A stretch of 64,000 nt of DNA from Eledone cirrhosa (lineage: Eukaryota), in NCBI GenBank assembly GCA_964016885.1, contig OZ024740.1, forward strand, positions 192,324,001 to 192,388,000. Reading direction: 5' to 3'. The notes beneath the pieces were generated by a model. The model saw only the letters and a program-made list of their open reading frames with translations. It ran no database searches and had not been told where the DNA came from. The number at the start of each line of letters is the position of its first letter. Within the stretch, counting starts at the first letter, position 1. Both the position numbers and the translations under genes were made by a program. Positions 1,803 through 60,028 of the stretch are shown in pieces.

Positions 1803-2442
1803 CTACTGTCCATATATTTTGAGAAAAGTCCCGGCTCTAAGGTGTCTGCATGTCCCGAAGAAGTCGGTTCTGAGGTTTATCAGGCCGCTTCCACCCCTTA
1901 GTATCTCGAGGGTCTCGTTCAGGCATAGTTTGCATATGCAAGATCCCCCTTTATCAGGTGGTACTTTCCTGATAATGTACCAGGCCAGAGAGTATGGGGT
2001 CCTGTCCAGCTTAAGCTTCCAGATCAGGTCGGATAGAGCTGTGCTTTTCCTTTTGGCCTCTTTCTTGAATGAATGGCGATGGTTGTACCAGCGGTCCTTA
2101 AAGCTCGTTGATGTGGCTCCTATGTAGAGGTGTTCGGAGTTGGGGGTTTTAACCCTACAACCGTACACTAAGTTCTTCTTGAGACATTCATTACCAAGGG
2201 GGCATGATTCGGGGTTTCTGCAGTTGCAGAGGGTGGTCGGCCTCTGCGTGCCTAGATTAGGGTTCTCATTATGTGTTACATGTTGGTCTCCCCCCATGCT
2301 CGGTGGGGGGTCCTTGGGTCTGTTTGTGTTTCTTGGGTGGGCTCTGGGTCCCCTCTTCCCCTCCTTTCACATGGTTCTGCTGAGTGTTTGTATTGCCATC
2401 TTCTGGTTGTGTGTGGCTTTTAAGCCTACTTCTGTTGATGCT
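1803..2442 (-). pseudogene. PLE C-terminal GIY-YIG endonuclease fragment
   Basis: CNCRNPESCPLGNEC (CxCx5Cx5C), LVY...YIGATSTSFKDRWYNH, CKLC and CRH motifs; upstream part frameshifted and truncated. Confidence 0.9.
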
Positions 2443-2563
2443 ATTCATATGACTCCAGTACCCCAGTGAATTAACAACCCAACAAGGAACTGGGCATATC
2501 AGAGTATTGACAATATCATACACCTAAATAACATATGTACTTGTCTATACCATACTAATTCAA

Positions 2564-2618
2564 ACTGCCTGAAGAGGTCACAGCCAAAGATGGCTGTCAC
2601 TGAAATATATATAGCAGT
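2564..2618 (+). ncRNA. Type I hammerhead ribozyme (inverted pseudo-LTR copy)
   Basis: actgc CTGAAGA ggtcacagcca-aaga-tggctgtcact GAAA tatata TA gcagt. Confidence 0.85.
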
Positions 2619-2667
2619 AATAAACGAATCTAAATTTTAATCATTTGACTTTTATTTAACTTTATTT

Positions 2668-3308
<641 letters not shown>

Positions 3309-3363
3309 TTACTTTAATATATACATATATATTTTGTAACAGCAGAATGAGTTGTATTATTTT

Positions 3364-3745
3364 TGGCAGTATCGGTAGAGGGCCGGACGCCATGATTTGA
3401 TGCATAGAATTACGGCCCTTGCCATTCTGAGTTCGAATCCCGCCGAAGTTAACTTTGCCTTTCATCCTTACGGGGTCGATAAAATAAAGTACCAGTAATG
3501 CACTGGGTAATTGCTGGCCTTGTGCCAAAAATTTGAAACAATTATTTATATTCCTTTGCGGTGGATTGGCAACATCGGTAGAGGGTCGGGCGCCATGCTT
3601 TCCAGCATAGTTAGTCTCTTTGCGGTCTGAGTTCAAATCCCGCCGAGTTTAACTTTGCCTTTCATCCTCACGGGGTCGATAAAATAAAGTACCAGTAATA
3701 CACTGGGATAATTTTTGGCCTTGTGCCAAATGTGGAAACCATTAT
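3364..3745 (+). mobile_element. Two tandem tRNA-derived SINE copies
   Basis: A-box-like TGGCAGTATCGG and B-box GAGTTCGAATCC; shared body aactttgcctttcatcc...ggggtcgataaaataaagtaccag recurs at 13.3, 39.0, 47.4, 47.9 and 48.1 kb. Confidence 0.85.
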
Positions 3746-4147
3746 TTATATTCCTTGAAATAATATATTTTCTATATTATGCATAGATTAGGCCCCGATA
3801 TTGAACTCTTATCCCCCCTAACATTCCTAAAACCTCATAAAATAATGTGTTATTATAATTAAGCAAAGTTCCCGCCCTCTGTTTTTTAATTTAATTAATT
3901 AAATTTATCTAATATATATCTTTAATTTTTCGTTTTTTTATGACCAAGACATTATGCTATTTTAAAAAAAAAACATATGAAGCATCTAAATTAACTGTCC
4001 TTATTATTTATTCATTTGTTTATTTCTAGATTTCCCAATGACTTTAAATCCTAGAAAAGTTCTAAATTCTGAATCAGATAACCGTTTTGAGCTGATCGTA
4101 TACGATCTCTTTCACGAGTCTGTCATATAATATTTTATATATCTAAT

Positions 4148-6585: not shown

Positions 6586-6674
<89 letters not shown>

Positions 6675-6691
6675 TACATGTATATACCATA

Positions 6692-6832
<141 letters not shown>

Positions 6833-6907
6833 CTATATATATATATAACTATATATATATATATATAACTATATATATATATATATAACTATATATATAT
6901 ATATATA

Positions 6908-6953
<46 letters not shown>

Positions 6954-6988
6954 TATATATATATATAAATATATGTAGTAAATATATA

Positions 6989-7041
<53 letters not shown>

Positions 7042-7152
7042 CATATGTATATACTACATGTATATATACATATATATAAATATATATATATGTATATATA
7101 TATATTAGTGAAAAAGAACAAAGGAACTATTATGACATTATAACAAGTTTAT

Positions 7153-7199
7153 TGCCGACAGCCGTTTCGTCCGACCATATAGTGGGACTTTTCAAGGCA
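7153..7199 (-). ncRNA. Variant hammerhead (UUGAAAA core) in a PLE 3' end (about 7105-7900)
   Basis: tgcc TTGAAAA gtcc...ggac GAAA cggctg TC ggca; U3/A8 replaces C3/G8. Confidence 0.7.
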
Positions 7200-8145
7200 T
7201 ATAACATGTGATTGTAAGATCATTATTTACATCAACGTATCACTCAAGACTAGCAGTTTGAAATTGTGGTATACATCCGCAGCTCCGCTTGTATAGTTGG
7301 GGTCTATATTCTAAGGGGGCTCTTTTATATTAGTTTTCGGGCGTCAGGGATTTAAGGTTAAAAATTAGATAATATATAATTTACGCATTAAAAGTAAAAA
7401 TTCGAAATTCAAAATTCAAAATTAAAAGACTTGCGATCTCGTAGAAGCACCTTAAAAAATCCCTCAATAAGTGCATAAAGCTTACAGGCCCCAATAAACC
7501 TAACAAAGTAGAAGAGATTAAGAGGCTAATAAAATAAAAAAATAAAAATATAAAGTTTCCCTGAAAAATATAAAGTTTCCTAAGAAATCCCTTCGAGAGA
7601 AACATTTTTTTTTTTTTTCGATTTTTTTTTCTACGAAAGAAAAAACTTTCTTCCCCCGATATTACGTTAAACAATTTCAGAAAATTTACGAAGTTTTGAT
7701 ATTCCCTACTAAGTTGAAACAAACTAATCAATTAAAGGTTAGTTCAGAGAGCCTTCAATAAATCTCTCAGAAAAGGCCCCTTTAATATTTTTAATAGGAA
7801 CCTCCTCCGAGAGACCCTTCGAAGAATTAAAATGTTAGAGAGCCTTTATGGATATATATAAACGAATTGAGGAAAATTATAAATTAAAAGTTAAAAATTA
7901 CGGTATTTGGGATATATGTATATATATATATTTCGTTTCTGAATTTGTTTAGCAAGATTCTTTATCTGAAATCGTGTGTTGAAACCGATATTGTTATACT
8001 TTGGGAGGGTCATGTTGCCAATAAGAAACACACGCACCAGTTGCTTTCACTTCAGTTTATTATATATTTATAAATTTACAAATTTATAAATTTATAAATT
8101 TCTGGTTGGTTGGTTGGTTCCACAACTAGATAGTTGTTTATATAT

Positions 8146-8190
8146 AGTCATAGTCTTTTCGTCACACACTCTGTGACCTCTTCAGTGACT
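8146..8190 (-). ncRNA. Hammerhead motif, slightly degenerate
   Basis: agtca CTGAAGA ggtcaca-gagtg-tgtgac GAAA agac TA tgact. Confidence 0.7.
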
Positions 8191-8401
8191 GGTGATTCCT
8201 TTTTTGTTTCTGTGCCTCTCCTTTGTTCTGTCCTACGCCATTTTGTTTCTGTGTGTGTGCTGTGTGCTCAGTCTGCGCATGCGCCACATCCGGGTGTCTG
8301 TGTGTGTTTCTGTTCATTTATCTATTTGTTTATTTATTTGTTTATTTACATGTTACTGGTTGGTTGTTTGTTCTATGTGTGTGTGTGTTTTCATTTTGTC
8401 C

Positions 8402-9801
8402 TTAATTGTAAGTTGTGATGTTGCTGTTCCACTCATACTTTCTATTTAATTTTGGTTGTAATTCTTTTATGTTTATTGCTTCTGTAATTTGTCTAAACAT
8501 TGCATCTTTTCTGTGTGTAGATTCTATTTTCATTTCTATGTTCTCTAATTTACCCTTGTGTTCTATCTTAGCATGTTGGTAGAGTACAGATGATTCTTTA
8601 TTATCCTGAAGGTCTCGCCAGTGTTCATTTATCCGTTCCCCTATACTACAAGCTGTCTCACCTATGTACACTATATTTTTTGTCTCTACATTGTCCTTCA
8701 GTACATCTTATGCTATACACTACATTTCTAGTTTGACAGTTAATATGGGGGCTTATTTTACAGGTTATACATTTCTTATCTATACATGAGGGTCTTTGAA
8801 AAGGGTATGTCTTGCTAATAAGTGTTTTTACGGAGGTACCTGGTCTTTCTACTATCTTAATATTGAGTTTATGTTTATTTAGGGCCCTTCTAAAGTTGTA
8901 GGCTAGTTCGCCTCTAGGGGTTGTATCGATGAACATAATACTCTGGTATTTATTGCTATCATACCATGAGTTTATTCTATTAGCCTTGTTCCTAGTTCTT
9001 TCTATTCTATTCCAAAATTTGCTCCTGTACAAGGGGCAGGTCCCATTTATGTCATTATTTACCATTTTTTCCTATTTGGTTCTGGCTCCTCTATACACTC
9101 TGATTCTATCTCTCTTATTGTAGCCAGAGAACTGCATTAGGTGGATGAAGTGTTGTATGTGTCTCTCTAGTTCTTCGGGGTTGCACATGCGGGACACATT
9201 TCTCATCACCCGTACCAAATCCGCAATCAGTATGTTGATTTTGGTATGGTCTGAAATGGCCGAGTTTCGGTGGATCAGATGTTTGGAAGTCATGGGTTTG
9301 GCATAATGGGAATGGAGGATTTGTTTTTGGTTGTTAATGGTATCTAACCAGAGCTCTGTGTCTAGTACAGGTAATCGATGGTTGGGGTGTTTACTTGGGT
9401 AGTCTATAGTAACTCTAATGCTCTGGTGGATGGAGTTTGCTATTTTCTGGATGCTTTCCATTGTGTTTTTCTCTAGTTCCTGACTGTTCTCTAGTGGGGG
9501 TGTCTTAACTACGATGTTTATATCATCTACGTAGCGGGAGTACATTATCAGGGTTGAGGGGTCTTCTAATTGTTCTTTAAGTTTAAGTTTAAGTCTACTG
9601 TCCCACCATACCATGAATAAGGTAGCTATGTCGCCTGCAATGCTAACACCAATGGCTGCTCCTTCCTCTTGGGCATATGTTTTTCCATTAAATTTGAACA
9701 TATGTTCCTTAAGGGTTAGTTTTATGCTGGCCCCTACCGCATGTGCAATCATTTTCTTCAGTTCATCGTGTTTTCGGGTGGAACAGAGCCATACGGACAC
9801 A
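8402..9801 (-). pseudogene. PLE reverse transcriptase + GIY-YIG endonuclease (two frameshifts)
   Basis: FKFNGKTYAQEEGAAIG, RYVDD, LPVLD, HYAKPM (RT); Cys-rich linker, NVVYSIRC, YIGETACSIGERINEH, EAINI (GIY-YIG). Confidence 0.92.
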
Positions 9802-10181
9802 TTTGTAAACAAACTGAAAAGCCTGAATTTTTATTCCGTACGGTATTAAGGCAACCACGTCACCTTTTTGTTCAACACTGACACAGGAACGATGTACTAG
9901 TTTCAAGCTTGTTAGCTATCAGCCGTTAATTTTCATAAGGAAAGTATATATACTTTGGAACGTTCAACTATCTGGCAGATGGGTATACGGTGCTGATGAT
10001 AGCTGACAAGCTTGAAACTAGTACATCGTTCCTGTGTCAGTGTTGAACAAAAAGGGGACGTGGTTGCCTTAACACCGTACGGCATAAAAATTCAGGCTGT
10101 TCAGTTTGTTTACAAACGAACAAAGCGGCGTTATAATAAGCGTCCGCTAAACTGATACGTGCATATATGTATGTGTACCTG

Positions 10182-10263
<82 letters not shown>

Positions 10264-10313
10264 TGCTACTGTACGTCTGTATACATATATGTATGTACGT
10301 ATACCCACATACT

Positions 10314-10318
<5 letters not shown>
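9802..10318 (+). mobile_element. Partial copy of the 467-bp HHR repeat (retrozyme-like) with an inverted arm
   Basis: Near-identical to the units at 32.5-36.3 kb; inverted arm at 9802-9922; HHR at 9986-10030. Confidence 0.88.
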
Positions 10319-10389
<71 letters not shown>

Positions 10390-10592
10390 TATATATATAT
10401 ATATATCCAAAGTACTCAATACTTGAGGTAGTAGAGTGGGTAATAGGAACCCCTTACTGGTTCCTATATATATATATATATATAACATATTACTACCAAT
10501 CGTATATAAATATTGATTTTGTCATAACTAATCACTGCCCAAACTGGAATTGAACCATCAGCACAGTTGAGGTATGTCAGACATCAATTTAT

Positions 10593-17818: not shown

Positions 17819-17823
17819 ATATA

Positions 17824-19362
17824 CTGATGAGGGACTTATTTTATTACATGTTACCATGTGCTACCTGCAGTATTTTTCTCTATATTTTAATACATATATT
17901 TACCACTGCGATTCTGTGTTTTTTTCTCTCTCTCTTACTGTTCCCCCATTCTCTCTGTTTCTCCCCCTCTGTCTTGTCCGTTAACTCTTCCTCACACTTT
18001 CACTCACTCACTGTTTTTCTCCCTCTTCTTTTCATTTCATCCTGCACTCACGAACGCTATTTTTTCTCTCTCTGCTCAATAGCTTTCGTTCGTGTTGGTA
18101 CTATTCTCTAAGCTCTCACATATTCACCTAGCTTATGCTAAACGAATAATTTTTGAAGCTTGTTTCTCCCCTAAGGTATGCTATATTTTCTGTTGTTCTC
18201 CTGTCTCACTCGCTTTACGCGTTTTAATTGTCCTAATAACTTATTTTGGTTATTATTGCACCGAAGTGAGATATATGATTTTTAATGCAATGAAATATCT
18301 ATGATCTTCGGCAAATCACTGATGAGGGACTTATTTTATTACATGTTACCATGTGCTACCTGCAGTATTTTTCTCTATATTTTAATACATATATTTACCA
18401 CTGCGATTCTGTGTTTTTTTCTCTCTCTCTTACTGTTCCCCCATTCTCTCTGTTTCTCCCCCTCTGTCTTGTCCGGTAACTCTTCCTCACACTTTCACTC
18501 ACTCACTGTTTTTCTCCCTCTTCTCTTCATTTCATCCTGCACTCACGAACGCTATTTTTTCTCTCTCTGCTCAATAGCTTTCGTTCGTGTTGGTACTATT
18601 CTCTAAGCTCTCATATATTCACCTAGCTTATGCTAAACGAATAATTTTTGAAGCTTGTTTCTCCCCTAAGGTATGCTATATTTTCTGTTGTTCTCCTGTC
18701 TCACTCGCTTTAAGCGTTTTAATTGTCCTAATAACTTATTTTGGTTATTATTGCACCGAAGTGAGATATATGATTTTTAATGCAATGAAATATCTATGAT
18801 CTTCGGCAAATCACTGATGAGGGACTTATTTTATTACATGTTACCATGTGCTACCTGCAGTATTTTTCTCTATATTTTAATACATATATTTACCACTGCG
18901 ATTCTGTGTGTTTTTCTCTCTCTCTTACTGTTCCCCCATTCTCTCTGTTTCTCCCCCTCTGTCTTGTCCGTTAACTCTTCCTCACACTTTCACTCACTCA
19001 CTGTTTTTCTCCCTCTTCTCTTCATTTCATCCTGCACTCTCGAACGCTATTTTTTTCTCTCTCTGCTCAATAGCTTTCGTTCGTGTTGGTACTATTCTCT
19101 AAGCTCTCATATATTCACCTAGCTTATGCTAAACGAATAATTTTTGAAGCTTGTTTCTCCCCTAAGGTATGCTATATTTTCTGTTGTTCTCCTGTCTCAC
19201 TCGCTTTACGCGTTTTAATTGTCCTAATAACTTATTTTGGTTATTATTGCACCGAAGTGAGATATATGATTTTTAATGCAATGAAATATCTATGATCTTC
19301 GGCAAATCACTGATGAGGGACTTATTTTATTACATGTTACCATGTGCTACCTGCAGTATTTT

Positions 19363-19363
<1 letters not shown>
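17824..19363 (+). repeat. 495-bp tandem repeat (about 3.1 units) with an atypical hammerhead-core motif
   Basis: CTGATGAGGG at 17824, 18319, 18814 and 19310; non-coding; flanked by (TA)n. Confidence 0.93.
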
Positions 19364-19396
<33 letters not shown>

Positions 19397-32490: not shown

Positions 32491-32544
<54 letters not shown>

Positions 32545-33118
32545 TGAAACAAAATGAAAACGAAATTTCATTTCTCACTCTTAGTATGGCACTTACTTAA
32601 ATGTAAGTATGCATGTATACGTACATACATATATGTATACAGACGTACAGTAGCATGCACATATATATATATATATACATATATACATACATATGCATAC
32701 AGGTACACATACATATATGCACGTATCAGTTTAGCGGCGCTAACGTCGCTTTGTTCGTTTGTAAACAAACTGAACAGCCTGAATTTATGCCATACGGTGT
32801 TAAGGCAACCACGTCACCTTTTTGTTCAACACTGTATATACTTTTTGTTCAACAAGTATATACTTTCGAACGTTCAACTATCTGGCAGATGGGTAAACGG
32901 TGCTGATGATAGCTAACAAGCTTGAAACTAGTACATCGTTCCTGTGTCAGTGTTGAACAAAAAGGTGACGTGGTTGCCTTAACACCGTATGGCATAAATT
33001 CAGGCTGTTCAGTTTGTTTACAAACGAACAAAGCGACGTTAGCGCCGCTAAACTGATACGTGCATATATGTATGTGTACCTGTATGCATATGTATGTATA
33101 TATGTATATATATATATG

Positions 33119-34363
33119 TCAGGTCACCACTTGGTGCTACTGGTAACATGTATCCCAGTACAACCTGTCTCATGGTCGGGTCGTTGGCGACTAAACTGGC
33201 AACCCCACCAAGGTTTCTCGGTGAGGAGGGTGACTTTGGACATCCTGCAGGACTAAAAACAAAACCTGTCAAAGGGCAAAGGAGCTCTTAAGAGTCAATG
33301 GCCATCCAAAATCACTGGGAGAGATGACCCCTTAGCCTTTGTCAAGGCAGAATTCTAGGAGAGGGAAAACTCTGATATAACACCTGCAACCCTGATGGTA
33401 TCCAATGATGTTGACTTGTTCTTCTTTTTGGTAAATATCATCTTGGTTAAGAGAGTGGGACTGGCTTTGTGCAGTGCCTTTGCTCACTATAAAAGCTTCA
33501 CGGCACAGGCATTGCTTTATATCTGGAGATCTCTCTGCACTTGTCGTCGCATGGTACCAAGGGCCCAGCACTATGTGTCAATAATTGTCACAGGTGTAGT
33601 GTTTGTACCAGAGTTTTCAAGTCGCTGGCTGGACTAAAAAGTCACACTCGTTCAGCGCATCGGTAGGGGTTCTCCTACATGGATATAAAGTAGTGGCCGT
33701 ACTCGAAAACGAGTTGGCAGCCACCATATATATATGTATGTATATGTGTATATATGTATGTATATGTATGTGTATGTATATATGTATGTATATATGTATG
33801 TATGTGTGTATGTATATATGTATGTATATATGTATATATGTGTGTATGTATGTGTATATATATGTATGTATGTGTATATGTATGTATGTATGTATGTATA
33901 TATATGTGTGGCCATCCAAAATCACCGGGAGAGATGACCCCTTAGCCTTTGTCAAGGCAGAATTCTAGGAGGAGGAAAACTCTGATATAACACCTGCAAA
34001 CCTGATGGTATCCAATGATGTTGACTTGTTCTTCTTTTTGGTAAATATCATCTTGGTTAAGAGAGTGGGACTGGCTTTGTGCAGTGCCTTTGCTCACTAT
34101 AAAAGCTTCACGGCACAGGCATTGCTTTATATCTGGAGATCTCTCTGCACTTGTCCTCACATGGGCCCAGCACTATGTGTCAATGGTTGTCCTACCATGG
34201 GCCCAGCACTATGTGTCAATGGTTGTCACAGGTGTAGTGTTTGTACCAGAGGTTTCAAGTCGCTGGCTGGACTAAAAAGTCCACTCGTTCAGCGCTTCGG
34301 TAGGGGTTATCCTACATGGATGTAAAGTAGTGGCCGTACTCGAAAACGAGTTGGCAGCCACCA
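33119..34363 (+). mobile_element. Bipartite non-autonomous RTE-derived element plus a truncated tandem copy
   Basis: RTE 5'UTR-type motif ctaggagagggaaaactctga; RTE C-terminal CSVC...GLKSH zinc finger; 3' end actcgaaaacgagt; copies at 33119-33726 and 33909-34363. Confidence 0.7.
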
Positions 34364-34618
34364 TATATATATATATATGTGCATGCTACTGTACGTCTGT
34401 ATACATATATGTATGTACGTATACATGCATACTTACATTTAAGTAAGTGCCATACTAAGAGTGAGAAATGAAATTTCGTTTTCATTTTGTTTCAATTTAT
34501 CGTTTTCGGTATGCCTGACCGATTTAACTCACTCAATATGCAAATTGGGCTGCTCAGCCGTTAATTTTCATAAGGAAAGTATATACTTTCGAACGTTCAA
34601 CTATCTGGCAGATGGGTA

Positions 34619-34663
34619 AACGGTGCTGATGATAGCTAACAAGCTTGAAACTAGTACATCGTT
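34619..34663 (+). ncRNA. Minimal type I hammerhead (representative of 6 copies)
   Basis: aacggtg CTGATGA tagct-aaca-agctt GAAA ctag TA catcgtt; stem III is the palindrome ACTAGT; predicted GUA cleavage after 34656. Confidence 0.85.
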
Positions 34664-36303
34664 CCTGTGTCAGTGTTGAACAAAAAGGTGACGTGGTTGC
34701 GTTAACACCGTATGGCATAAATTCAGGCTGTTCAGTTTGTTTACAAACGAACAAAGCGACGTTAGCGCCGCTAAACTGATACGTGCATATATGTATGTGT
34801 ACCTGTATGCATATGTATGTATATATGTATATATATATATATATGTGCATGCTACTGTACGTCTGTATAAATATATGTATGTACGTATACATGCATACTT
34901 ACATTTAAGTAAGTGCCATACTAAGAGTGAGAAATGAAATTTCGTTTTCATTTTGTTTCAATTTATCGTTTTCGGTATGCCTGACCGATTTAACTCACTC
35001 AATATGCAAATTGGGCTGCTCAGCCGTTAATTTTCATAAGGAAAGTATATACTTTCGAACGTTCAACTATCTGGCAGATGGGTAAACGGTGCTGATGATA
35101 GCTAACAAGCTTGAAACTAGTACATCGTTCCTGTGTCAGTGTTGAACAAAAAGGTGACGTGGTTGCCTTAACACCGTATGGCATAAATTCAGGCTGTTCA
35201 GTTTGTTTACAAACGAACAAAGCGACGTTAGCGCCGCTAAACTGATACGTGCATATATGTATGTGTACCTGTATGCATATGTATGTATATATGTATATAT
35301 ATATATATATATGTGCATGCTACTGTACGTCTGTATACATATATGTATGTACGTATACATGCATACTTACATTTAAGTAAGTGCCATACTAAGAGTGAGA
35401 AATGAAATTTCGTTTTCATTTTGTTTCAATTTATCGTTTTCGGTATGCCTGACCGATTTAACTCACTCAATATGCAAATTGGGCTGCTCAGCCGTTAATT
35501 TTCATAAGGAAAGTATATACTTTCGAACGTTCAACTATCTGGCAGATGGGTAAACGGTGCTGATGATAGCTAACAAGCTTGAAACTAGTACGTCGTTCCT
35601 GTGTCAGTGTTGAATAAAAAGGTGACGTGGTTGCCTTAACACCGTATGGCATAAATTCAGGCTGTTCAGTTTGTTTACAAACGAACAAAGCGACGTTAGC
35701 GCCGCTAAACTGATACGTGCATATATGTATGTGTACCTGTATGCATATGTATGTATATATGTATATATATATATATATGTGCATGCTACTGTACGTCTGT
35801 ATACATATATGTATGTACGTATACATGCATACTTACATTTAAGTAAGTGCCATACTAAGAGTGAGAAATGAAATTTCGTTTTCATTTTGTTTCAATTTAT
35901 CGTTTTCGGTATGCCTGACCGATTTAACTCACTCAATATGCAAATTGGGCTGCTCAGCCGTTAATTTTCATAAGGAAAGTATATACTTTCGAACGTTCAA
36001 CTATCTGGCAGATGGGTAAACGGTGCTGATGATAGCTAACAAGCTTGAAACTAGTACATCGTTCCTGTGTCAGTGTTGAACAAAAAGGTGACGTGGTTGC
36101 CTTAACACCGTATGGCATAAATTCAGGCTGTTCAGTTTGTTTACAAACGAACAAAGCGACGTTAGCGCCGCTAAACTGATACACATGCATATATGTATGT
36201 GTACCTGTATGCATGTGTATGTATATATGTATATATATATATATATATGTGCATGCTACTGTACGTCTGTATACATATATGTATGTACGTATACATGCAT
36301 ACT

Positions 36304-36375
<72 letters not shown>

Positions 36376-36380
<5 letters not shown>

Positions 36381-37057
36381 ATACTTGGGGAGGGTCATAT
36401 TTGTGTCTATATTGTATCTGAATAATTCTGGAAATATTACACAAATATGACCGTCCCGTGTAGAATCTACACACAGAAAAGATGCAATGTTTAGACAAAT
36501 TACAGAGGCAATAAACATAAAAGAATTACAACCAAAATTAAATAGAAAATGTGAGTGGAACAGCAACATCACAACTTACAATTAAGGACAAAATGAAAAC
36601 ACACACACACATAGAATAAACAACCAACCAATAACATGTAATTAAATAAACAAATAGATAAATGAACACAAACACACACAGACACCCGGATGTGGCGCAT
36701 ACGCAAACTGAGCACACAACACACACACAGAAACAAAATGGCGTAGGACAGAAGAAAGGAAAGGCACAGAAACAAAGAAAGGAATCCCCAGTCACTGAAG
36801 AGATCACAGAGTGTGTGACGAAAGGACTATGACTATATATAAACAACTATCTGGTTGTGGAACCAATCAACCAACCAGAAATTTATAAATTTGTAGATTT
36901 GTAAATTTATAAATTTATAAATATATAATAAATTGAAGTGAAAGCAACTGGTGCGTGTGTTTCTTATTGGCAACATGACCCTCCCAAAGTATAACAATAT
37001 CGGTTTCAACACACGATTTCAGATTAAGAATCTTGCTAAACAAATTCAGAAACGAAA
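36376..37057 (+). mobile_element. Short 3' copy of the 7.9-9.8-kb PLE
   Basis: ESTHRKDAMFRQITEAINIKELQPKLNRK, HHR at 36790-36834, tail; short inverted terminus at 36376-36406. Confidence 0.88.
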
Positions 37058-37419
37058 TATATATATATATATATATACTTATATATATATATTTATATTT
37101 ATATTTATATTTATATATACATTGATTTATTATGGCTATTGGTGAGCTGCCTCACTCTAACGTTTCGCCTGCGCACTCACAGGATCAGCAGTCATATAAG
37201 TTCGCAGGTGAAACTTCAGACAAACAAGACTTATCACTTTGTCATAATAAATGTATATTTAAACTCTATTTCGGTATTGAGTTTGCATTCTTACGTCTGT
37301 CAATAATTTGCGTACTCTCAGATCTAATTATTTTATTTTACATTAAAACAACATTATATACAACAAAAAAATGACATTACAAGTAATCCCATATTTACGA
37401 ACATAAAACAATTACCGGA

Positions 37420-56520: not shown

Positions 56521-57096
56521 TAATTAAGTTAAAAATGTACATCCACATATGTATACTGAAATACTAGTATGCATATGAATACACACACGTATACATATGT
56601 AGATGTACCGAGTTTTTCACTGGTCACTTTACTGTGAGTGTACAGCTATTCTGTATGTAAACACACAGACAAACCGGTTTTTAGAGTCCGGAAGATAGGT
56701 AAATATTGCTGATGAGATGTAACAACATCGAAACAATTTAGAGGCCGGAAGATAGGTAAATATTGCTGATGAGATGTAACAACATCGAAACTAGTTCAAT
56801 ATTCCTTGTCTGGCTTTCTGGAGAATAGAGGAAAGGTGTTTCCTCAAAAACCAGTATGACTCTAAAAACCGGTTTGTCTGTGTGTTTACATACAGAATAG
56901 CTGGACACTCACAGTAAAGTGACCAGTGAAAAACTCGGTACATCTACATATGTATACGTGTGTGTATTCATATGCATACTAGTATTTCAGTATACATATG
57001 TGGATGTACATTTTTAACTTAATTGTTTAAGCGTCAGTCATACAAAAGTGAGTTACAAACGAAACGAAATTTAATTTCGTTTCGTTATTTGTTTTT
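56521..57096 (+). mobile_element. Inverted-repeat HHR element, sister of the 467-bp family
   Basis: About 167-bp arms at 56522-56688 and 56858-57024; duplicated HHR core; tail at 57025-57096 homologous to the 467-bp tail. Confidence 0.85.
56759..56803 (+). ncRNA. Minimal type I hammerhead
   Basis: aatattg CTGATGA gatgt-aaca-acatc GAAA ctag TT caatatt; all stems perfect. Confidence 0.9.
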
Positions 57097-59431: not shown

Positions 59432-59997
<566 letters not shown>

Positions 59998-60028
59998 TAT
60001 ATATATATATATATATATAAATATATAC

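What the first reader, a model, noticed from the sequence alone, without database searches (positions are those of the whole stretch)
9780..10318. Direct fusion of a PLE RT gene to the retrozyme: candidate autonomous partner
Seen: the 5'-truncated RT (minus strand) is joined at about 9801, with no (TA) spacer, to a same-sense 120-bp piece of the 467-bp unit, which then flips to an inverted copy. The 3' end of the same PLE family also lies right after the main array (36376-37057). Inference: the PLE RT switched template onto retrozyme RNA, which would identify the helper element. Alternative: independent insertions into shared (TA)n targets with a target-site deletion.
Basis: partly seen in the sequence, partly recalled or inferred. 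Interest (0 to 1): 0.75.

Follow-up and report, generated by a model that had tools for sequence, protein, structure and literature searches.

The report
Penelope element joined to hammerhead repeat
A broken copy of a Penelope-like jumping gene is joined, with no TA spacer, to a two-armed copy of a hammerhead-carrying 466-base repeat; the join was likely made when the Penelope element inserted beside a repeat that was already there, so it does not by itself identify the repeat's helper.

Summary
Homology to the Penelope-like element (PLE, minus strand) ends at 9780, not 9801. Bases 9781-9800 are an inverted copy of the 20 PLE bases around the break, 9801 is one unassigned base, and 9802-9921 is a same-sense 120-nt piece of the 466-bp unit. 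That piece pairs at 96% with 9997-10116. The 70-mer across the join is unique in the 3.0-Gb genome.

The 20-nt patch has the layout of twin priming, so the join was probably made during PLE reverse transcription. That does not tell whether the repeat strand that primed it was resident DNA or new cDNA.

- 0 of 53 positionally sampled repeat loci touch the PLE.
- 0 of 127 repeat-associated (TA)n tracts are PLE-adjacent, against 5 of 321 others.
- At the second site (36461-37059) the PLE and the array differ in age.

Best reading (about 0.55): ordinary PLE insertion beside a resident two-armed repeat, with loss of target DNA. A single hybrid event stays open (about 0.3).

Separately, the repeat family copies this PLE family's insertion style, which supports a PLE-type helper. 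That idea is already published, and this scan had noted the family in this genome before.

The parts
7102..7915 (-). Left flank: a 5'-truncated copy of another dispersed repeat ('X'). Its 3' end abuts the (TA)n tract at 6586-7105.
   Evidence: at least 1142 candidates. Partial copies all start at the query's left end and stop at varied points; other copies run on past ...gggatat; about 530 nt of X are missing here.
7916..7931 (.). Short (TA)-type remnant at the PLE 3' end, which is the site of target priming.
   Evidence: Sequence (atgtatatatatatat).
7932..9780 (-). 5'-truncated Penelope-like element. It covers about positions 2222-4050 of an element of about 4050 nt: the C-terminal half of the RT, a CX4CX2C linker, a GIY-YIG-like endonuclease, the 3' UTR and a 59-nt 3' tail.
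   Evidence: 96.4% identical to the L045 copy. Frameshifted into three frames. 25 of 1848 sites are private.
8140..8192 (-). Hammerhead-like motif in the PLE 3' UTR: AGUCA CUGAAGA G GUCACA..UGUGAC GAAA AGAC UA UGACU in this copy.
   Evidence: Motif reading and MFE only. Rfam finds no hammerhead in full-length copies even at E up to 5.
9781..9800 (+). 20-nt patch: PLE sense sequence lying on the plus strand, so inverted relative to the PLE copy. It copies the PLE bases from 17 nt upstream of the break to 3 nt inside it.
   Evidence: canonical ...gacCAGAGCCATACGGACAC|CCGAAAAC... in 29 of 29 fetched copies, up to single-base differences. The window has the reverse complement with one mismatch.
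9801..9801 (.). One base that fits neither the PLE nor the repeat unit.
9802..9921 (-). Same-sense (as the PLE) piece of the 466-bp unit, unit positions 252-369. It spans the predicted hammerhead cleavage site (unit 278/279). It is the inner remainder of the repeat's left arm.
   Evidence: 3 of 120 sites are private.
9919..10187 (+). Forward partial unit (unit 176-466) with the hammerhead core at 9993. It shares the 3-nt overlap 'tca' (9919-9921) with the left arm.
   Evidence: 3 of 265 sites are private.
10188..10259 (.). Expanded TA-rich part of the unit.
10261..10318 (+). Terminal partial unit (unit about 2-61): the short type of 3' end of the repeat family.
   Evidence: The same end type is seen at 36249-36308 and in 7 ends of the sample.
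10317..10406 (.). Right-flank (TA)n tract, followed by a truncated MITE-like element from 10407.
32539..33117 (.). Two-armed repeat piece: minus 1-122 and 293-466, then plus 199-462. It is 99-100% identical to the main-array unit. It is likely the other arm of the main-array insertion, split off by 1.26 kb of inserted DNA.
34363..36308 (+). Main array: 4.2 units of 466 bp at 98%, with four hammerhead cores.
   Evidence: 2 of 466 sites are private.
36377..37059 (+). Second PLE insertion. A 23-nt inverted canonical start (ttgttatac...) and a small hairpin filler are followed by the forward 3' 575 nt with its tail (36461-37059). (TA)n lies on both sides.
   Evidence: 94.05% identical to the first copy, no closer than to other copies. 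14 of 599 sites are private.
59858..59999 (.). Third PLE insertion of the same family, very small: inverted 38 nt plus forward 78 nt, inside the 3-kb (TA)n region.

Best explanation
A 5'-truncated Penelope-like element is joined head-on to a two-armed copy of a 466-bp hammerhead repeat, and the join was likely made when the PLE inserted beside a repeat that was already there.

Inferred steps:
1. The repeat first landed in a (TA)n tract in its usual two-armed form. The left arm ran outward to its normal end and the right arm ended in the short end type.
2. Later a PLE RNA was reverse-transcribed from a nick in the (TA)n tract on the left. This gave the minus-strand copy whose tail is at 7932.
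3. The opposite strand was open not in (TA)n but inside the repeat's left arm, at unit position 369. Its 3' end, plus one extra base, primed a second short cDNA on the same PLE RNA just upstream of where the first cDNA stopped (twin priming). That produced the 20-nt inverted patch with a 3-nt overlap.
4. Joining the two cDNAs removed the rest of the (TA)n tract and the outer part of the arm. The loss is at least 97 nt, and about 250 nt if the arm carried the usual tail.

Shown directly: the anatomy, the uniqueness of the join, and the lack of genome-wide association. Inferred: the order of events and the priming steps.
For: - Four segments match two standard events. 27 of 53 sampled repeat loci have the same 5'-to-5' two-armed form, with 0-5 nt overlaps at varied breakpoints. 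25 of 54 distinct PLE loci also do.
- Inverted patches taken from just upstream of the truncation point recur in this PLE family where no repeat is involved. Examples are L015/L045 (116 nt, 7-nt overlap) and L018 (55-nt snap-back).
- 5 of 11 distinct solo PLE 5' joins abut non-(TA)n DNA, so loss of the (TA)n on the 5' side is common.
- The left arm stops at unit 369, which is not one of the family's three normal 3' ends. The arm was therefore cut short rather than ended.
- No association genome-wide: 0 of 53 loci; 0 of 127 against 5 of 321 (TA)n tracts; 0 direct joins in 64 PLE-centred loci.
- A nested PLE in a repeat's internal (TA)n (L043) shows that this PLE does land in resident repeats.
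- At the second site the PLE (14 of 599 private sites) is older than the array (2 of 466).
- The neighbourhood is a stack of (TA)n-targeted insertions: repeat X, the PLE, the hammerhead repeat and a MITE.
- No sequence similarity was found between the unit and the PLE (blastn word 7).
Against: - The repeat copy and the PLE copy have the same private divergence within error: 6 of 385 (1.6%) against 25 of 1848 (1.35%). The repeat cannot be shown to be older, and a single event predicts this equality.
- The composite obeys the 'one tail per insertion' rule as if it were one event. The PLE end carries its 59-nt tail and the repeat end is the short, tail-less type. In the sample, all 6 two-armed insertions with a short end had the tail on the other arm. 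This reading therefore needs a loss of roughly 250 nt or more.
- Two of the three PLE insertions in this window abut the window's two repeat loci, among 59 (TA)n tracts. That is roughly a 2% coincidence, assessed after the fact.
- No empty or intermediate allele was available. No second near-identical copy of the flank exists in the assembly, and no read bridges the join.
Confidence: 0.55

Rival explanations
1. One hybrid integration event. A PLE enzyme complex at a single (TA)n break would have copied PLE RNA from one DNA end and repeat RNA from the other. The repeat cDNA would then have snapped back on itself for 120 nt, jumped onto the PLE RNA for 20 nt, and finally copied the PLE cDNA. This would be physical evidence that this PLE reverse-transcribes the repeat.
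For: - Equal private divergence of the two parts (1.6% against 1.35%).
- One tailed end (PLE) and one tail-less end (repeat), as in single two-armed events. 0 of 25 repeat twins and 0 of 7 PLE twins with both ends visible carry two tails.
- All 5 differences between the arms are singletons among 113 family copies, so the arms could have been identical at birth.
- A 3-nt overlap at the arm flip and one extra base at the PLE patch fit template jumps.
- The repeat family shares this PLE's target and insertion style.
Against: - It needs three template switches, including a 120-nt self-copied patch. None of the 28 5'-to-5' arm junctions in the sample needs such an extra inverted piece; 22 join within 5 nt, and the rest have longer overlaps or gaps that were not inspected.
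- No second PLE-repeat chimera was found in 53 + 11 repeat loci or 64 PLE loci.
- The piece ends at an internal unit position and spans the predicted cleavage site.
- Every feature is also produced by two ordinary events.
Confidence: 0.3
2. A later deletion or repair event, unrelated to retrotransposition, fused a longer PLE copy to the repeat arm and left a templated filler.
For: - Break repair by end joining can leave short templated inserts (general knowledge, recalled).
- The region is rich in unstable (TA)n and inverted repeats.
Against: - On the PLE-sense strand the patch is antisense and covers bases that are mostly absent from the retained copy. Its template must therefore have been PLE sense sequence, such as the RNA. 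Snap-back on the retained DNA end would give the wrong segment (reasoned).
- The same layout recurs at other PLE 5' ends.
Confidence: 0.08
3. Assembly or long-read fold-back artefact.
For: Inverted repeats are a common site of chimeric reads. No public run could be laid across the join.
Against: - The arms differ at 5 of 120 positions, each a private change. An artefactual fold-back would be a perfect copy.
- The two-armed form is found at 27 of 53 other loci.
- The patch layout matches other PLE copies.
Confidence: 0.04

Closest known systems
Complex tandem and inverted insertions of Penelope-like elements (Craig et al. 2021, PMC8557442; section 11 and passages read)
   Same: 5' truncation; an inverted 5'-truncated copy abutting the forward copy; a short 'tail' present at one end only; microsatellite (TA)n target. 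All are seen in this PLE family.
   Different: Here the DNA upstream of the inverted patch is another mobile repeat instead of (TA)n or an inverted PLE copy. The tail is 59 nt, against the 30-40 bp described in that paper.
L1 twin-priming inversions (recalled: Ostertag and Kazazian 2001; PMC2837659 seen as a search listing with the start of its abstract only)
   Same: An inverted segment taken from just upstream of the forward segment, with a small overlap at the inversion point. The outer end of the inverted segment lies next to the upstream DNA end that primed it.
   Different: The inverted segment is only 20 nt. The element is a PLE with a GIY-YIG nuclease. Target-site duplications cannot be read in (TA)n.
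U6/L1 and other LINE-1 chimeric retrocopies made by template switching (PMC4476161 and PMC13174262, search listings with the start of each abstract only)
   Same: A same-sense foreign piece fused without spacer to the 5' end of a 5'-truncated retroelement.
   Different: In those chimeras the partner ends at its natural RNA 3' end and the type recurs many times (recalled; neither paper was opened). Here the piece ends at an internal position, is itself half of an inverted repeat, and no second case was found.
Metazoan non-LTR retrozymes and the proposal that PLEs mobilise them (Cervera and de la Pena 2020, PMC7229834, passages read; Li, Clavereau and Pollet 2026, bioRxiv 10.64898/2026.07.22.740005, abstract and sections 14 and 16 read)
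   Same: Tandem units of a few hundred bp, low G+C (36%), one type I hammerhead-like motif per unit, and co-existence with PLEs.
   Different: The unit shows no sequence similarity to this PLE, whereas Li et al. report similarity of Xenopus retrozymes to PLE terminal repeats. Neither paper, in the parts read, describes a physical PLE-retrozyme join.

Membership tests
Penelope-like element (C-terminal endonuclease type) | Reverse transcriptase domain | tested here: inconclusive
   Pfam RVT_1 scores only 19-20 bits, below the 29.6 cut-off. YVDD and the preceding motif were read by eye. The nearest ESM Atlas clusters carry RVT_1, GIY-YIG and HTH_animal at score 0.96; this is a lead only.
Penelope-like element (C-terminal endonuclease type) | GIY-YIG endonuclease C-terminal to the RT, with a Zn-finger-like linker | tested here: inconclusive
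   No Pfam GIY-YIG hit at E up to 0.1. Motifs were read by eye in the 712-aa frame: CX4CX2C, then IVYIGET..R..EH. Atlas look-alike clusters carry PF01541 in 26-47% of members.
Penelope-like element (C-terminal endonuclease type) | Partial tandem or inverted 5'-truncated copies (pseudo-LTR architecture) | tested here: met
   25 of 54 distinct loci have a 5'-to-5' flip and none has a 3'-to-3' flip. Head-to-tail copies are seen in L049, L036 and L059.
Penelope-like element (C-terminal endonuclease type) | [quoted passage not shown] | tested here: met
   Of 7 two-armed loci with both ends in view, 5 have one 59-nt tail, 2 have none and 0 have two.
Penelope-like element (C-terminal endonuclease type) | Hammerhead ribozyme in the terminal repeat or UTR | tested here: inconclusive
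   A hammerhead-like motif lies about 200 nt from the 3' end. 24 of the 47 instances found with a 14-nt anchor have the same 58-nt stretch, and the MFE gives helices I and II. Rfam gives no hammerhead at E up to 5.
Non-LTR retrozyme (animal) | Short tandem repeats (about 150-450 bp) of low G+C, non-coding | tested here: met
   466-bp unit, 4.2 copies at 98%. G+C is 36.3%. Arrays of 1 to 10 units occur at 53 sampled loci. Coding capacity was not examined beyond the frames listed.
Non-LTR retrozyme (animal) | Type I hammerhead ribozyme in each unit | tested here: inconclusive
   Core CUGAUGA...GAAA, helix I of 6-7 bp, helix II of 4 bp, and a 1-bp helix III capped by the palindromic loop CUAG were read. 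Rfam Hammerhead_HH9 gives only 18.5 bits (gathering 52) and nothing at gathering. The exact 32-mer occurs 10,672 times, with 0 in the reversed control. There is no cleavage assay.
Non-LTR retrozyme (animal) | Expressed as linear and circular RNA | not testable with these tools
   No RNA run was listed as a holder.
Template-switch chimeric retrocopy (U6/L1 type) | Same-sense partner fused directly to a 5'-truncated element | tested here: met
   9802-9921 is joined through 21 nt to the PLE at 9780, with no (TA)n between.
Template-switch chimeric retrocopy (U6/L1 type) | Partner ends at the natural 3' end of its RNA | tested here: not met
   The piece ends at unit 369. The family's 3' ends are at unit 466, about 63 or 122. 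The piece also spans the predicted cleavage site at 278/279.
Template-switch chimeric retrocopy (U6/L1 type) | Recurrent, independent chimeras of the same pair | tested here: not met
   0 of 53 positionally sampled loci, 0 of 11 similarity-picked loci (one nested PLE, with (TA)n on both sides) and 0 of 64 PLE-centred loci. The samples are small beside the roughly 2,400 loci extrapolated for the genome from 53 loci in 66 Mb.
Twin-priming inversion | Inverted segment from just upstream of the forward segment, with a small overlap or gap | tested here: met
   The patch covers the bases from 17 nt upstream of the break to 3 nt inside it, giving a 3-nt overlap.
Twin-priming inversion | Target-site duplication around the whole insertion | not testable with these tools
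   Both flanks are (TA)n, and the left flank is a truncated repeat.

The most novel reading that the evidence does not exclude
The locus is a single hybrid integration. One Penelope enzyme complex at one (TA)n break copied its own RNA from one DNA end and the hammerhead repeat's RNA from the other, then stitched the two cDNAs together by template jumps. That would be the first physical record of a PLE reverse-transcribing a retrozyme, and would name this PLE family as the helper.
Probability: 0.3. Interest if true: 0.7.

Novelty: new member of a known kind. Interest (0 to 1): 0.38.

Why it matters
Which enzyme copies animal retrozymes back into DNA is an open question. PLEs are the published candidate, on the grounds of co-occurrence and of shared ribozymes or terminal sequences. 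A true PLE-retrozyme chimera would be direct evidence. This work shows that the one join found here cannot carry that weight: it is unique, it shows no genome-wide enrichment, and two ordinary insertions explain it. The better evidence in this genome is statistical. The repeat and the PLE share the target, the frequency of two-armed insertions (51% against 46%) and the one-sided 59-nt tail. Those figures define what a genome-wide catalogue or a mobilisation assay should look for.

Tried and rejected
- Rfam on the whole window at gathering thresholds found nothing. On full-length PLE copies it found no hammerhead.
- Read support: the look-up of sequencing runs listed no run holding half of the words and no RNA holder. 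Laying X1-X4 gave only short contigs of the two repeat families. Depth collapses in 9781-9817 and no listed piece bridges the join. The join is therefore neither confirmed nor denied by reads.
- Search for an alternative haplotype contig using the left flank found only 83-93% copies of a dispersed repeat. No empty or intermediate allele was found.
- Local duplication as the cause of the two PLE-repeat adjacencies in the window is rejected. The two PLE copies are 94.05% alike, no closer than to other copies (mean 93.0%).
- L043 looked like a second direct join. It is a tiny PLE insertion nested in the repeat's internal (TA)n, with the repeat continuing on the far side.
- Sequence kinship of the unit with the PLE: blastn with word size 7 found none.
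- Clustering of arm breakpoints at the hammerhead cleavage site: only 1 of the 56 inner arm ends of the 28 5'-to-5' flips lies within 10 nt of it (275).
- Earlier notes of this scan on the same family were seen only after my own analysis of the locus. I treat them as leads, not evidence.
Full report
**What is in the sequence**

The window lies in a 3.0-Gb animal genome rich in (TA)n. On the minus strand, from about 7932 to 9780, lies a copy of an abundant, young retroelement. Searches with two different stretches of it returned 1105 and 1608 candidate places, and the scored copies were 98-100% identical to the query. One copy (L045) has an open 712-aa frame. [quoted passage not shown] Pfam gives only a sub-threshold RVT_1 hit. 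The nearest ESM Atlas clusters combine RVT_1, GIY-YIG and HTH_animal.

Head-to-tail copies show a full length of about 4050 nt. The window's copy covers about 2222-4050 and is broken into three frames. Insertions of this family sit in (TA)n. Of 54 distinct loci, 25 carry an inverted 5'-truncated copy joined 5'-to-5' to the forward copy, and none shows the 3'-to-3' arrangement. A 59-nt 3' tail is present on at most one side. These are the hallmarks of Penelope-like elements described by Craig et al. 2021 (PMC8557442, section 11 and passages read).

**The join itself**

All 39 other scored copies match the window only up to 9780. The 29 fetched copies continue upstream differently from the window; 28 share one upstream sequence and L038 shares it for about 34 nt. 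Bases 9781-9800 are the reverse complement of the canonical PLE bases around the break, with one mismatch, and they overlap the forward copy by 3 nt. Base 9801 fits nothing. From 9802 to 9921 runs a 120-nt piece of the 466-bp unit (unit 252-369) in the same sense as the PLE. At 9919-9921 ('tca') the sequence flips to the opposite-sense partial unit (176-466). That is followed by an expanded TA stretch, a terminal partial unit (about 2-61) and (TA)n.

The arms 9802-9921 and 9997-10116 are 96% complementary. Each of their 5 differences is a singleton among 113 family copies. The 70-mer across the join is unique in the genome, with 5 of 5 candidates scored.

**What the unit is**

The unit reads as aACGGUG CUGAUGA U-AGCU-AACA-AGCU-U GAAA-CUAG-UA|CAUCGUu. 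This is a type I hammerhead layout with a 1-bp helix III capped by a palindromic loop. By recall (Lünse et al. 2017, no call) this is the minimal form described for PLEs; the passages of PMC7229834 read here say only that minimal type I variants occur in PLEs and that axolotl retrozyme hammerheads cut better as dimers. Rfam scores it far below threshold (18.5 bits against 52). The exact 32-mer core occurs 5449 + 5223 times, against 0 in the reversed control. G+C is 36%. I call it a retrozyme-like repeat. Cleavage and circular RNA are untested.

**How the repeat inserts**

The first 100 places of the exact 32-mer form a sample chosen by position rather than similarity. They fall into 53 loci in C1:2.5-68.5 Mb, which I fetched with 3-kb flanks, 342 kb in all.
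- 27 of 53 loci have a 5'-to-5' flip with varied breakpoints and mostly 0-5 nt of overlap. One has a 3'-to-3' flip.
- Three kinds of 3' end occur: unit 466, about 63, and 122.
- Among 25 clean two-armed clusters, the end at 122 is never on both sides. The pairs are (466,122) 12, (122,63) 6, (466,466) 4 and other 3. Two further clusters with mixed strand order (L106, L115) were set aside.
- The end at 122 is nevertheless the commonest end of one-armed copies (16 of 29).

The stretch 64-122 therefore behaves like the PLE's one-sided tail, and it is also 59 nt long. The repeat family thus copies this PLE family's target, its frequency of two-armed insertions (51% against 46%) and its tail rule. 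This is my main support for a PLE-type helper. It does not depend on the join. It also does not single out this PLE family, because the unit and the PLE share no detectable sequence.

**Is the join a sign of co-mobilisation?**

The patch has the layout of twin priming: an inverted segment from just upstream of the forward segment, overlapping it slightly. On the PLE-sense strand the patch is antisense, so its template was PLE sense sequence, most simply the RNA. The primer was the 3' end of the repeat's sense strand at unit 369 plus one base (inference). Similar patches occur at other 5' ends of this PLE with no repeat nearby (L015/L045, L018). The join was therefore probably made during PLE integration. 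What cannot be read from it is whether the priming strand was resident DNA or nascent repeat cDNA.

*Evidence for two ordinary events:*
- The four segments equal one standard two-armed repeat plus one standard PLE with a patch.
- The left arm stops at a non-standard position, so it was cut short.
- 5 of 11 distinct solo PLE 5' joins abut non-(TA)n DNA.
- L043 shows this PLE nested in a resident repeat.
- The neighbourhood is a stack of (TA)n-targeted insertions.
- There is no enrichment. No PLE lies closer than 738 nt at any of the 53 sampled loci. 0 of 127 repeat-associated tracts are PLE-adjacent, against 5 of 321 other (TA)n tracts (Fisher p = 0.33). Of 64 PLE-centred loci, one has a repeat piece, 1.2 kb away.

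*Evidence for one hybrid event:*
- Private divergence is the same in the two parts: 6 of 385 against 25 of 1848.
- The composite has exactly one tailed end (PLE) and one tail-less end (repeat).
- The two-event reading needs a loss of about 250 nt, because all 6 sampled twins with a short end had the tail on the other arm.
- Two of the window's three PLE insertions touch its two repeat loci, among 59 tracts.

I weigh these at about 0.55 for two events, 0.30 for one hybrid event, and the rest for later repair or artefact.

**The second adjacency**

The second adjacency (36307-37059) is a canonical PLE insertion with (TA)n on both sides. Its private divergence (14 of 599) exceeds that of the array (2 of 466). 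The two window PLE copies are no closer to each other than to other copies. It reflects a shared target and not co-integration.

**Comparison with what is known**

That PLEs mobilise animal retrozymes was proposed by Cervera and de la Pena 2020 (passages read). Li, Clavereau and Pollet 2026 proposed it again (abstract and sections 14 and 16 read). Two full-text searches found no paper describing a PLE-retrozyme join: 'retrozyme' with 'Penelope-like', and 'Penelope-like', 'template switching' and 'twin priming' with two of three terms required.

Earlier notes of this scan had already described this repeat family in this genome as Penelope-driven. They also describe two-armed insertions with two fixed ends in other genomes. 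My counts agree with them, but I reached them from my own sample.

**Limits**
- The samples cover 53 of the roughly 2,400 loci I extrapolate for the genome from 53 loci in 66 Mb of C1.
- The hammerhead and GIY-YIG assignments rest on motif reading.
- No reads bridge the join and no alternative allele was found.
- The order of events is inferred.

Noticed in passing
window 56680-56791: Two tandem 57-bp units, each with a neat hammerhead-like core: CUGAUGAG-AUGU-AACA-ACAU-CGAAAC (cores at 56709 and 56766). They lie beside the 3-kb (TA)n region.
   Followed up: no
window 17823-19371: A 495-bp tandem array, 3.1 copies at 98%, whose unit begins ACTGATGAGGGAC. My simple CTGANGA...GAAA scan found no complete core there.
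   Followed up: no
window 7102-7915 and L132-L136: A dispersed repeat 'X' of at least 1.3 kb with at least 1142 candidate copies. Its copies share one end at (TA)n and are truncated to varied lengths at the other, like a target-primed retroelement. The window's copy lacks about 530 nt.
   Followed up: partly
window 10407-10460; L002 1100-1165 and 1853-1985; L045 7998-8200: A MITE-like element with terminal inverted repeats (...ggaacgagtaggaccccgacggc...) that repeatedly flanks (TA)n tracts. The window's copy is truncated at its left end.
   Followed up: no
window 9746-9780: The window's PLE copy has a 1-nt deletion (CCGAAAACACG against the usual CCGAAAACCACG). The four other places matched fit this 35-mer at 97-100%, so they probably share it; this suggests a small subfamily copied from a frameshifted source.
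   Followed up: partly
L045 1959-4367 (minus strand): A second, unrelated PLE-type frame of 802 aa (DKG motif, YVDD, C-terminal GIY-YIG-like block) lies next to the intact copy of the family studied here. A candidate for other helper families.
   Followed up: no
window 32539-34378: A two-armed repeat piece, 99-100% identical to the main-array unit, is separated from the array by 1.26 kb that includes 36-bp repeats (34151-34227). It is likely one insertion split by later DNA.
   Followed up: partly
L098 3690-3830: A SINE-like insertion of about 130 nt inside a repeat unit, flanked by a direct duplication (ttataataaacatc).
   Followed up: no
window 10598 and 61601/61680: Short CUGAUGAGGAC(A/G)UACUGA..GAAA motifs that may be further minimal hammerhead-like sites.
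   Followed up: no
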